Assembly: GCF_011045215.1 (NCBI RefSeq) | Contig: NZ_CP049201.1 | Length of the DNA: 64,000 nt | Direction: 5' to 3' (one strand) | Origin: Escherichia coli | Lineage (GTDB): Bacteria; Pseudomonadota; Gammaproteobacteria; Enterobacterales; Enterobacteriaceae | Part shown: positions 27,851-28,140 of the stretch, piece after piece | Position numbering within the stretch: the first letter of the stretch is position 1 | Layout: the number at the start of each line of letters is the position of its first letter | Position numbers and translations under genes: made by a program | The notes under the pieces: generated by a model | Seen by the model: only the letters and a program-made list of their open reading frames with translations | Database searches by the model: none | Told to the model about the DNA's origin: nothing

Positions 27851-28140
27851 GGTAGATAACAGGTAGACAACAAAGAAACGGTTATCTACCCACTTAACAC
27901 AATGATAAAAAACAACTTTTATCTATTAGGTAGATAGGGTAGATAGTAAAAGTGATTTTCTTTTAACTCTCCATTCTCTAACCTGTATTTTCCTTTCGCT
28001 GCGTAAAAAAGTTTTTAAGCGAGATATTGTCTACCCTATCTACCTATTTCGCTGAATCCCTTGTGGCGCAAGGGTTTCAGCGGGTAGGCATCCATAAAAC
28101 TAGCATCTACCCAATATCTACCCGTCTACCTGTTGCAGGC
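27851..28140. repeat. iteron array, candidate replication origin: at least 11 copies of GGTAGAYA / TRTCTACC
   Basis: Forward copies 27851, 27860, 27871, 27938, 27947; reverse copies 27892, 28037, 28046, 28113, 28124, 28133; A/T-rich spacer between clusters; directly 3-prime of the helicase/primase-like gene. Confidence 0.7.

What the first reader, a model, noticed from the sequence alone, without database searches (positions are those of the whole stretch)
27851..28140. Iteron origin directly 3-prime of the helicase/primase-like gene
At least eleven GGTAGAYA / TRTCTACC octamers are arranged as a forward cluster and a reverse cluster around an A/T-rich spacer, starting 3 bp beyond the stop of the P-loop initiator gene. 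This matches the pri-rep-ori arrangement of phage satellites, in which the initiator binds iterons just downstream of its own gene. It implies the island replicates autonomously after excision.
Basis: partly seen in the sequence, partly recalled or inferred. Interest (0 to 1): 0.65.

Follow-up and report, generated by a model that had tools for sequence, protein, structure and literature searches.

The report
Phage-satellite replication origin with iterons
The repeats are real and mark the replication origin of a phage-satellite island (a PICI). It closely resembles an E. coli satellite origin that has already been tested in the lab, so this is a sound but ordinary find with a rearranged layout.

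Summary
Twelve RGGTAGAYA sites (9 exact GGTAGAYA) lie in window 27842-28130, where 0.14 are expected. They form two mirror-image modules of 3 sites, 1 inverted site and 2 sites, on either side of an 82-bp AT-rich spacer. The nearest site ends 17 nt (not 3) after the stop of the 582-aa P-loop gene.

The protein is 71% identical to Pri-Rep of EcCICFT073, whose pri-rep-ori segment was shown to drive plasmid replication (PMC6092414). That island's 3' spacer carries the same GGTAGA iterons. The protein's C-terminus matches the origin-binding winged-helix domain of phage P4 alpha (PDB 1KA8). Module spacing (8-10, 11, 20-23, 44-46, 8-10) equals that of P4 ori1. Relatives carry other iterons (GGTGAACA, GTAGGGATA) in the same layout.

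What differs here:
- The two modules face each other across the spacer. In about 70 relatives they sit back to back.
- The helicase-plus-origin cassette sits inside a RepA-type helicase gene. A gene remnant and a second, orphan iteron cluster (CCCCACTTTT, 27107-27424) remain.
- The protein's N-terminal domain has a TOPRIM-like fold but lacks the canonical acidic residues.

Replication itself was not tested. Verdict: new member of a known kind, low to moderate interest.

The parts
28148..29896 (-). Initiator gene (Pri-Rep type, 582 aa). Domains: N-terminal TOPRIM-like domain (aa 1-130), D5_N, SF3 P-loop helicase (Walker A GDGGSGKST, aa 315-322), and a C-terminal winged-helix origin-binding domain (aa about 486-576).
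   Evidence: Pfam D5_N, DUF5906 and Pox_D5. 71% identical to EcCICFT073 Pri-Rep. 40% identical to P4 alpha over aa 142-578. PDB 1KA8 and 7OLA matches. TIGR01613.
28028..28130 (-). Gene-proximal iteron module A. Read away from the gene it holds 3 sites, 1 inverted site and 2 sites. Cores: 28125-28130(-), 28117-28122(-), 28106-28111(-), 28083-28088(+), 28039-28044(-), 28030-28035(-).
   Evidence: gaps 8, 11, 23, 44, 9. Conserved in L012-L016.
27946..28027 (.). Central AT-rich spacer (82 bp, 31.7% G+C) between the two inverted modules. It is the candidate DNA-unwinding element. It contains the conserved CGTAAAAAAGTTTTT stretch that is also present next to module A in EcCICFT073-type origins.
   Evidence: Composition. 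Low duplex stability at 27940-27969 and 28004-28033. Homologous AT-rich stretch in L004-L007 and L011.
27842..27945 (+). Gene-distal iteron module B, the mirror image of A. Cores: 27842(+), 27851(+), 27862(+), 27885(-), 27929(+), 27938(+). It has a 38-bp inner spacer of 21% G+C (27891-27928).
   Evidence: gaps 9, 44, 23, 11, 9 in gene orientation. 27900-27929 is the least stable duplex of the origin.
28050..28082 (.). 14-bp-stem inverted repeat inside module A, at the position that is AT-rich in module B. Its role is unknown and it is not terminator-like.
   Evidence: Inverted repeat I3. DNA fold dG -14 kcal/mol, z -6.6; kept in L016, lost in L012, weak in EcCICFT073. No terminator call.
27820..27830 (.). 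Left boundary of the helicase-plus-origin cassette. The 11 bp TATCCGGTACT are shared with both the RepA-type islands and the L012-type islands, so this is a likely crossover point.
   Evidence: blastn end points are 27830 (against L002) and 27820 (against L012-L014). Sequence.
27424..27831 (-). Remnant (C-terminal 115-135 aa) of a RepA-family (AAA_25) helicase gene that is full length in sister islands. It is not part of the active origin but it defines the cassette.
   Evidence: RefSeq pseudogene annotation in ETEC1732. Full-length genes in L002 and L003. phrog_2850 positions 347-465. AAA_25.
27107..27424 (.). Second, orphan iteron cluster (CCCCACTTTT / AAAAGTGGGG, 6 exact CCCACTTTT sites) in a 20-30% G+C stretch 3' of the RepA remnant. 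It is presumably the origin of the displaced RepA-type replicon.
   Evidence: 6 of the 7 exact sites in the window lie here. At the same positions L002 and L003 read CCTCACTTTT.

Best explanation
Window 27842-28130 is the replication origin (oriV-type, iteron-based) of a phage-inducible chromosomal island of about 12.4 kb. The island is integrated in the 5' end of comM.

Proposed mechanism:
1. After induction and excision, the adjacent 582-aa Pri-Rep protein binds the twelve RGGTAGAYA iterons. It is an SF3 hexameric helicase with a C-terminal winged-helix domain, and that domain is proposed to do the binding.
2. The two mirror-image 3-1-2 modules bring protein assemblies to both sides of the 82-bp AT-rich spacer. 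The spacer and/or the 38-bp AT-rich stretch inside module B is melted.
3. The helicase loads itself there, and the host replisome copies the circle in theta mode, as for satellite phage P4.

Shown here: the repeats, their dyad geometry, their conservation, the homology of the protein and of the origin to EcCICFT073 and P4, and the fact that the helicase and origin travel as one cassette.

Inferred: binding, melting site, directionality and activity in this island. The priming step is open. The N-terminal domain has a TOPRIM-like fold but lacks the canonical E and DxD residues, so the host DnaG may be needed.
For: (1) Enrichment. 12 sites lie in 289 bp against 0.14 expected.

(2) Homology to a tested replicon. 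The protein is 71% identical to EcCICFT073 Pri-Rep. The 288-bp spacer 3' of that gene has 11 GGTAGA cores. [quoted passage not shown]

(3) DNA-binding domain. Residues 486-576 match PDB 1KA8, the P4 alpha origin-binding domain (E 6.5e-8).

(4) Conserved geometry. The gaps are 8, 11, 23, 44, 9 | 92 | 9, 44, 23, 11, 9 in the window. The same module gaps occur in EcCICFT073, vB_KppS-Ant, the E. coli MIN9 island and the annotated P4 ori1 type-1 repeats.

(5) Iteron sequence changes with the initiator while the layout stays. The sequences are GGTAGAYA (window and EcCICFT073 group), GGTGAACA (Ant and P4) and GTAGGGATA (MIN9).

(6) Selection on the sites. In an alignment of five face-to-face origins (window, L012, L014, L015, L016; proteins 88-95% identical to the window's), 75 of 96 iteron columns are invariant against 117 of 197 other columns.

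(7) Modularity. Three different downstream contexts all begin at 27820-27842, just past the last iteron.

(8) Uniqueness in the island. No other GGTAGAYA cluster exists in the island.

(9) Melting candidates. The least stable duplex segments of the region lie in the spacer and inside module B.
Against: No experiment was done on this sequence. Binding of this protein to these sites, and firing of the origin, are inferred.

The block order differs from the validated EcCICFT073 origin, so function of the rearranged form is not guaranteed. The initiator is a recombinant: its N-terminal 129 aa are 96% identical at the nucleotide level to those of RepA-type helicases, and it has not been tested.

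No DnaA, IHF or GATC motifs were found. No catalytic primase domain was found, so the priming step is unexplained. The strong hairpin inside module A is unexplained.
Confidence: 0.8

Rival explanations
1. The cluster is a P4 crr-like cis-acting enhancer of replication rather than the start site. Initiation would happen elsewhere in the island, and this region would only concentrate or activate the initiator.
For: It occupies the position of P4 crr, directly 3' of the alpha-like gene, and the initiator is an alpha homologue.
Against: There is no second GGTAGAYA cluster anywhere in the island or the window. The modules have the site pattern of P4 ori1 (3-1-2), not that of crr. In EcCICFT073 the rep gene plus this 3' region was sufficient for plasmid replication.
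Confidence: 0.04
2. The repeats are mainly operator or promoter-control sites. They would autoregulate the replication gene or control the downstream late or packaging genes, or they would serve as a packaging (pac/cos) recognition site, not as an origin.
For: The repeats lie in a 376-bp intergenic region upstream of the next genes on the - strand. Iterons of plasmids are known to double as regulatory sites (general knowledge). A small-terminase-like gene is present at 23862-24389.
Against: No sigma-70-like promoter or terminator was found in 27300-28300. The downstream context differs between relatives (a pseudogene remnant here, ProQ/FinO directly in L012-L014, other genes in L016), yet the repeats stay with the helicase gene. 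The repeats match the specificity domain of a helicase, not of a terminase. The EcCICFT073 cos sites were mapped as separate sequences (Fig. S5 legend).
Confidence: 0.06
3. The region is a relic, that is, a true origin by descent but inactive in this island. The cause would be the module rearrangement or the chimeric initiator, or the island may be decaying. The neighbouring RepA remnant shows that the replication region has been scrambled.
For: A pseudogene remnant and an orphan iteron cluster lie next to it. Only 5 of 5426 complete E. coli genomes carry this exact origin.
Against: The initiator ORF is intact, with all invariant helicase residues. The face-to-face form is kept in six independent sequences (window and L012-L016) whose proteins have diverged to 88%, with iterons preferentially conserved. 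The dyad is exact to within 1 bp.
Confidence: 0.1

Closest known systems
EcCICFT073 pri-rep-ori (Gram-negative PICI replicon; Fillol-Salom et al. 2018, ISME J, PMC6092414)
   Same: The initiator is 71% identical over its full length. The origin lies directly 3' of the gene. Both use the same GGTAGA-core iterons, 11-12 per origin. Both have two inverted 3-1-2 modules with identical internal spacing, and a homologous AT-rich stretch next to module A. The surrounding genes are also shared (DUF4222, Icd-like, YlcI, PerC, integrase).
   Different: The module order differs. EcCICFT073 and about 70 IMG/VR relatives read stop-B-A-[AT-rich] (modules back to back). The window and L012-L016 read stop-A-[AT-rich]-B (modules face to face, 92 bp between the inner sites). 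The island here has no capsid genes and carries the remnant of a second replicon.
Satellite phage P4: alpha protein with ori1 and crr
   Same: The helicase and C-terminal winged-helix origin-binding domains are homologous (40% identity; 1KA8 match). Both use octamer iterons. The 3-1-2 module has the same spacing as the annotated ori1 type-1 repeats (10, 11, 21, 44, 10). As with crr, an iteron region lies directly 3' of the gene.
   Different: The iteron sequence is GGTGAACA in P4. P4 splits the function between ori1 (one module) and crr, 4.5 kb apart. Alpha carries a zinc-binding and catalytic TOPRIM primase region. Here only a TOPRIM-like domain without the acidic motifs remains.
SaPI (Staphylococcus aureus pathogenicity island) origins, e.g. 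SaPIbov1 (from memory and as summarised in PMC6092414)
   Same: The origin lies immediately 3' of the rep gene. Two sets of short iterons flank an AT-rich region. The initiator is a helicase that recognises its own iterons, so the replicon is specific to the island.
   Different: No detectable sequence relationship was examined here. The primase and rep genes are usually separate, and the host clade and iterons differ.
Iteron plasmids (RK2, F, P1, pPS10 type oriV)
   Same: Repeated initiator-binding sites lie next to an AT-rich unwinding element, and a winged-helix domain reads the iterons.
   Different: Plasmid iterons are 17-22 bp direct repeats. Their Rep protein is not a helicase and recruits host DnaA and DnaB. 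No DnaA boxes are present here.

Membership tests
Gram-negative PICI pri-rep-ori replicon (EcCICFT073 type) | The origin lies immediately 3' of the replication initiator gene. | tested here: met
   The nearest iteron is 17 nt after the stop codon, and the whole cluster lies within 306 nt of it.
Gram-negative PICI pri-rep-ori replicon (EcCICFT073 type) | Two sets of iterons flank an AT-rich region. | tested here: met
   Modules A and B lie around an 82-bp spacer of 31.7% G+C.
Gram-negative PICI pri-rep-ori replicon (EcCICFT073 type) | The initiator is homologous to a characterised PICI Pri-Rep. | tested here: met
   71% identity over 582/584 aa to L011:5242-6996.
Gram-negative PICI pri-rep-ori replicon (EcCICFT073 type) | The iteron sequence is the same as in the validated origin. 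| tested here: met
   11 GGTAGA cores lie in the EcCICFT073 3' spacer and in L004-L007.
Gram-negative PICI pri-rep-ori replicon (EcCICFT073 type) | The island shows PICI hallmarks: integrase, flanking repeats, size of about 10-15 kb, AlpA/PerC-type regulators, and no full phage structural or lysis set. | tested here: met
   The integrase is at 33956-35206. Direct repeats lie at 23027-23052 and 35207-35232. The span is about 12.4 kb. PerC, ProQ/FinO, Ant and Icd-like genes are present.
Gram-negative PICI pri-rep-ori replicon (EcCICFT073 type) | The cloned origin replicates in an initiator-dependent way, and the island is induced by a helper phage. | not testable with these tools
   This needs the plasmid-rescue assay and induction experiments.
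P4-type replicon (alpha, ori1, crr) | An alpha-like initiator with an SF3 helicase and a C-terminal origin-binding winged helix. | tested here: met
   40% identity over aa 142-578. 1KA8 match at aa 486-576.
P4-type replicon (alpha, ori1, crr) | Type-1 iteron sequence TGTTCACC / GGTGAACA. | tested here: not met
   The iterons here are RGGTAGAYA. P4 and vB_KppS-Ant have GGTGAACA.
P4-type replicon (alpha, ori1, crr) | A bipartite arrangement, with ori1 and a distant crr both required. | tested here: not met
   There is a single cluster, with no other GGTAGAYA group in the island.
P4-type replicon (alpha, ori1, crr) | An N-terminal zinc-binding plus catalytic TOPRIM primase domain in the initiator. 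| tested here: not met
   [not shown]
Classical iteron plasmids | Tandem direct repeats of 17-22 bp plus DnaA boxes, with a non-helicase Rep initiator. | tested here: not met
   The sites are 8-9 bp in mixed orientation. There are no DnaA boxes. The initiator is a helicase.

The most novel reading that the evidence does not exclude
The most novel reading has four parts.

(a) PICI origins and P4 ori1 are built from one ancient 3-1-2 iteron module of about 105 bp. The module can be re-specified (at least three iteron sequences were seen) and re-ordered.

(b) The face-to-face dyad seen here, with the unwinding element in the centre, is a distinct working architecture.

(c) Satellites exchange 'helicase core + DNA-binding domain + origin' cassettes behind a constant N-terminal, catalytically degenerate TOPRIM-like adaptor domain. 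That domain is shared by SF3 and RecA-type (AAA_25) helicases.

(d) Such exchange leaves orphan origins, like 27107-27424, that might still interfere with related satellites.
Probability: 0.45. Interest if true: 0.4.

Novelty: new member of a known kind. Interest (0 to 1): 0.25.

Why it matters
The finding marks the island as a probably replication-competent phage satellite and pinpoints its origin and cognate initiator. That is useful for annotation and for predicting incompatibility or cross-talk between satellites.

The comparative by-products are of some use to people who study satellite replication:
- The origin module is shared with P4 ori1.
- Three iteron specificities occur in one layout.
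- The helicase-plus-origin cassette has been swapped into a different helicase gene.
- The 'primase' domain lacks its catalytic residues.

None of this overturns current understanding.

Tried and rejected
- Promoter and terminator scan of 27300-28300 found 0 of each. A simple promoter/operator or terminator reading therefore gained no support.
- Rfam search on the whole island found no RNA family.
- DnaA box, IHF, Fis and GATC motifs are absent from the origin.
- The hairpin 28050-28082 was considered as a conserved structural element. It is strong here and in L016 but lost in L012 and weak in EcCICFT073 and MIN9, so it is not a family feature.
- Pasteurella phage Pmp8 (33% identical primase) has no obvious iterons 3' of the gene, only a terminator-like hairpin and the integrase, so it was uninformative.
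- Hit H34, which looked like a C-terminal domain plus origin travelling alone, is just an IS66-disrupted copy.
- Primary P4 papers on alpha binding are not in the searchable library (one search failed on a short term). The P4 features are taken from the GenBank annotation, the PDB entry name and my own knowledge.
- The EcCIMP1 paper has nothing on origins.
- My first idea was that the cassette's right junction was the gene start. blastn corrected this: the crossover lies inside the gene at about 29507/29508.

Full report
**Observation**

The sequence between the stop codon of the 582-aa ORF (28148-29896, - strand) and the next ORF is 376 bp long. GGTAGAYA occurs 11 times in the 64-kb window, and 9 of those lie in 27842-28122. 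Dinucleotide-preserving shuffles of the whole window give a mean of 1.77 and a maximum of 6.

With the core GGTAGR there are 12 sites in 27842-28130, where 0.14 are expected from the density elsewhere (Poisson P about 1e-19). The aligned sites give the logo A-N-N-R-GGTAGAYA.

Along the + strand the orientation is + + + - + + (27842, 27851, 27862, 27885, 27929, 27938). An 82-bp spacer of 31.7% G+C follows (27946-28027). Then come - - + - - - (28030, 28039, 28083, 28106, 28117, 28125).

Read from the gene, the start-to-start gaps are 8, 11, 23, 44, 9 | 92 | 9, 44, 23, 11, 9. This is a near-perfect dyad of two modules, each with 3 sites, 1 inverted site and 2 sites.

- The cluster starts at 27842, not 27851.
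- Each cluster contains one inverted site.
- The nearest iteron is 17 nt from the stop codon, not 3.

**The protein**

Pfam finds D5_N, DUF5906 (the SF3 P-loop) and a Pox_D5 C-terminal region. NCBIfam finds the P4-family 'primase C-terminal' domain at its cut-off.

tblastn against phages gives 40% identity to P4 alpha over aa 142-578, and 43% identity over the full length to the primase of the induced element vB_KppS-Ant. Against the PDB, residues 486-576 match 1KA8 (E 6.5e-8), deposited as 'putative P4-specific DNA primase', 100 residues. To my knowledge this is the origin-binding winged-helix domain of alpha. Residues 225-430 match the helicase part of 7OLA.

**Link to a tested origin**

Fillol-Salom et al. 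[quoted passage not shown] They also show that a plasmid carrying the EcCICFT073 rep gene and putative ori replicates only if both are intact.

I fetched EcCICFT073 using the coordinates in their Table S1. Its Pri-Rep is 71% identical to the window protein. Its 288-bp 3' spacer has 11 GGTAGA cores. The window's cluster is therefore a homologue of an experimentally supported origin, with the same iteron core.

**Comparative anatomy**

A scan of IMG/VR returned 80 loci whose proteins are 69-95% identical to the window's. All carry GGTAGR clusters right after the stop codon.

About 70 of them, like EcCICFT073, have the pattern << > <<< >> < >>, with the modules back to back and the AT-rich stretch beyond the distal module. 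The window and L012-L016 (88-95% identity) have >>> < >> << > <<<, with the modules face to face around the AT-rich stretch. The orientation of each module relative to the gene is unchanged. Only the order differs: stop-B-A-AT against stop-A-AT-B.

In an alignment of five face-to-face origins (window, L012, L014, L015, L016), 75 of 96 iteron columns are invariant, against 117 of 197 other columns.

More distant initiators keep the layout but change the word. vB_KppS-Ant has 11 GGTGAACA-type sites, the P4 word. An 813-aa P4-family protein in E. coli MIN9 has 11 GTAGGGATA-type sites.

The annotated type-1 repeats of P4 ori1 (9310-9413) have gaps of 10, 11, 21, 44, 10. That is the same module as here. 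P4 crr, which occupies the position directly 3' of alpha, has a different site pattern. Changing words in a constant layout, alongside a diverging C-terminal domain, is what is expected if that domain reads the iterons.

**The cassette**

Only 5 of 5426 complete E. coli genomes hold the whole 376-bp spacer. In 13 others, only 27772-27836 matches, and there it lies inside a full-length 'helicase RepA family' gene.

blastn shows that the window is collinear with those islands up to 27830 and again from 29508. Window 27831-29507 replaces 617 bp of the RepA-type gene. The 582-aa protein thus shares its first 129 codons with the RepA-type helicases (96% at the nucleotide level). The 115-aa ORF 27424-27771 is the C-terminal remnant of that gene (phrog_2850 positions 347-465, while the Pri-Rep N-terminus hits positions 1-135 of the same profile). 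The RepA-type protein consists of the N-terminal domain plus AAA_25.

In L012-L014 the origin is followed directly by the ProQ/FinO gene (junction 27820 | 26972). In L016 it is followed by other genes. Three different contexts all begin just beyond the last iteron, which shows that the helicase core, DNA-binding domain and iterons move as one unit. The 11 bp at 27820-27830 are shared by both parental types and may be the crossover point.

**Second iteron cluster**

Downstream of the remnant lies a 20-30% G+C stretch with 6 exact CCCACTTTT sites, out of only 7 in the whole window. In the islands with an intact RepA-type helicase, the same positions read CCTCACTTTT at every copy. This concerted change is typical of iterons that track their initiator. 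I read this as the orphaned origin of the displaced replicon.

**Mechanism (inferred)**

Pri-Rep binds the twelve sites through its winged helix. The two inverted modules nucleate assemblies on both sides of the AT-rich DNA. The least stable duplex stretches are 27900-27929, 27940-27969 and 28004-28033, about 3 sd below the window mean. Melting there would let the SF3 helicase load, and the host replisome would complete theta replication, as in P4.

Priming is unresolved. No DnaA, IHF or GATC motifs occur. A strong hairpin at 28050-28082 (dG -14, z -6.6) is present here and in L016 but not in L012 or EcCICFT073. I leave it unexplained.

**Rivals**

- A crr-like enhancer is unlikely, because there is no second cluster and the modules follow the ori1 pattern.
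- A purely regulatory or packaging role is unlikely, because the repeats stay with the helicase gene across different downstream contexts, and no promoter or terminator signal is seen.
- A non-functional relic cannot be excluded without experiments. However, the initiator is intact and the dyad is conserved in diverged copies.

**Verdict**

It belongs to the already described PICI pri-rep-ori kind. The iteron core is the same as in the validated EcCICFT073 origin, and the architecture is shared with P4 ori1.

The features particular to this copy are the face-to-face order, the cassette insertion into a RepA-type gene, the orphan origin and the degenerate TOPRIM domain. These are modest additions, so interest is low to moderate.

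Noticed in passing
window 27107-27424: There is a second iteron cluster (CCCCACTTTT / AAAAGTGGGG). Six of the seven exact CCCACTTTT sites in the window lie here, in DNA of 20-30% G+C, directly 3' of the RepA-helicase remnant. Sister islands with an intact RepA-type helicase have CCTCACTTTT at the same positions, a concerted iteron change. It is probably an orphaned origin.
   Followed up: partly
window 27424-27831 and 29508-29896: The 582-aa gene is a recombinant. Its first 129 codons and the 115-aa ORF downstream of the origin are the two ends of a RepA-family (AAA_25) helicase gene, whose middle was replaced by the SF3 helicase plus origin cassette. An 11-bp stretch (27820-27830, TATCCGGTACT) is shared by both parental types.
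   Followed up: yes
[not shown]
   Followed up: partly
window 28050-28082: A 14-bp-stem inverted repeat lies inside iteron module A (DNA fold -14 kcal/mol, z -6.6). It is conserved in L016 but not in L012 or EcCICFT073. It is not terminator-like and its role is unknown.
   Followed up: partly
window 22947-23084 and 35207-35374; comM 21598-23001: The island of about 12.4 kb is inserted in the 5' end of comM (yifB), between the rrn-aspT-trpT region and ilvL/ilvG. A 26-bp direct repeat made of two ATTAACTACACC units lies near both ends (23027-23052 and 35207-35232) and may be integrase arm sites. 26 of 5426 complete E. coli genomes carry an integrase at this site.
   Followed up: partly
L009 (P4) 9310-9413, compared with window 27842-27945 and 28028-28130: The annotated type-1 repeats of P4 ori1 have the same 3-1-2 site pattern and spacing as each PICI origin module. 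[quoted passage not shown]
   Followed up: partly
L093 (E. coli MIN9 island) 1843-2307: An 813-aa P4-family primase is followed by 11 GTAGGGATA-type iterons in the same two-module layout. This is a third iteron specificity in E. coli satellites.
   Followed up: partly
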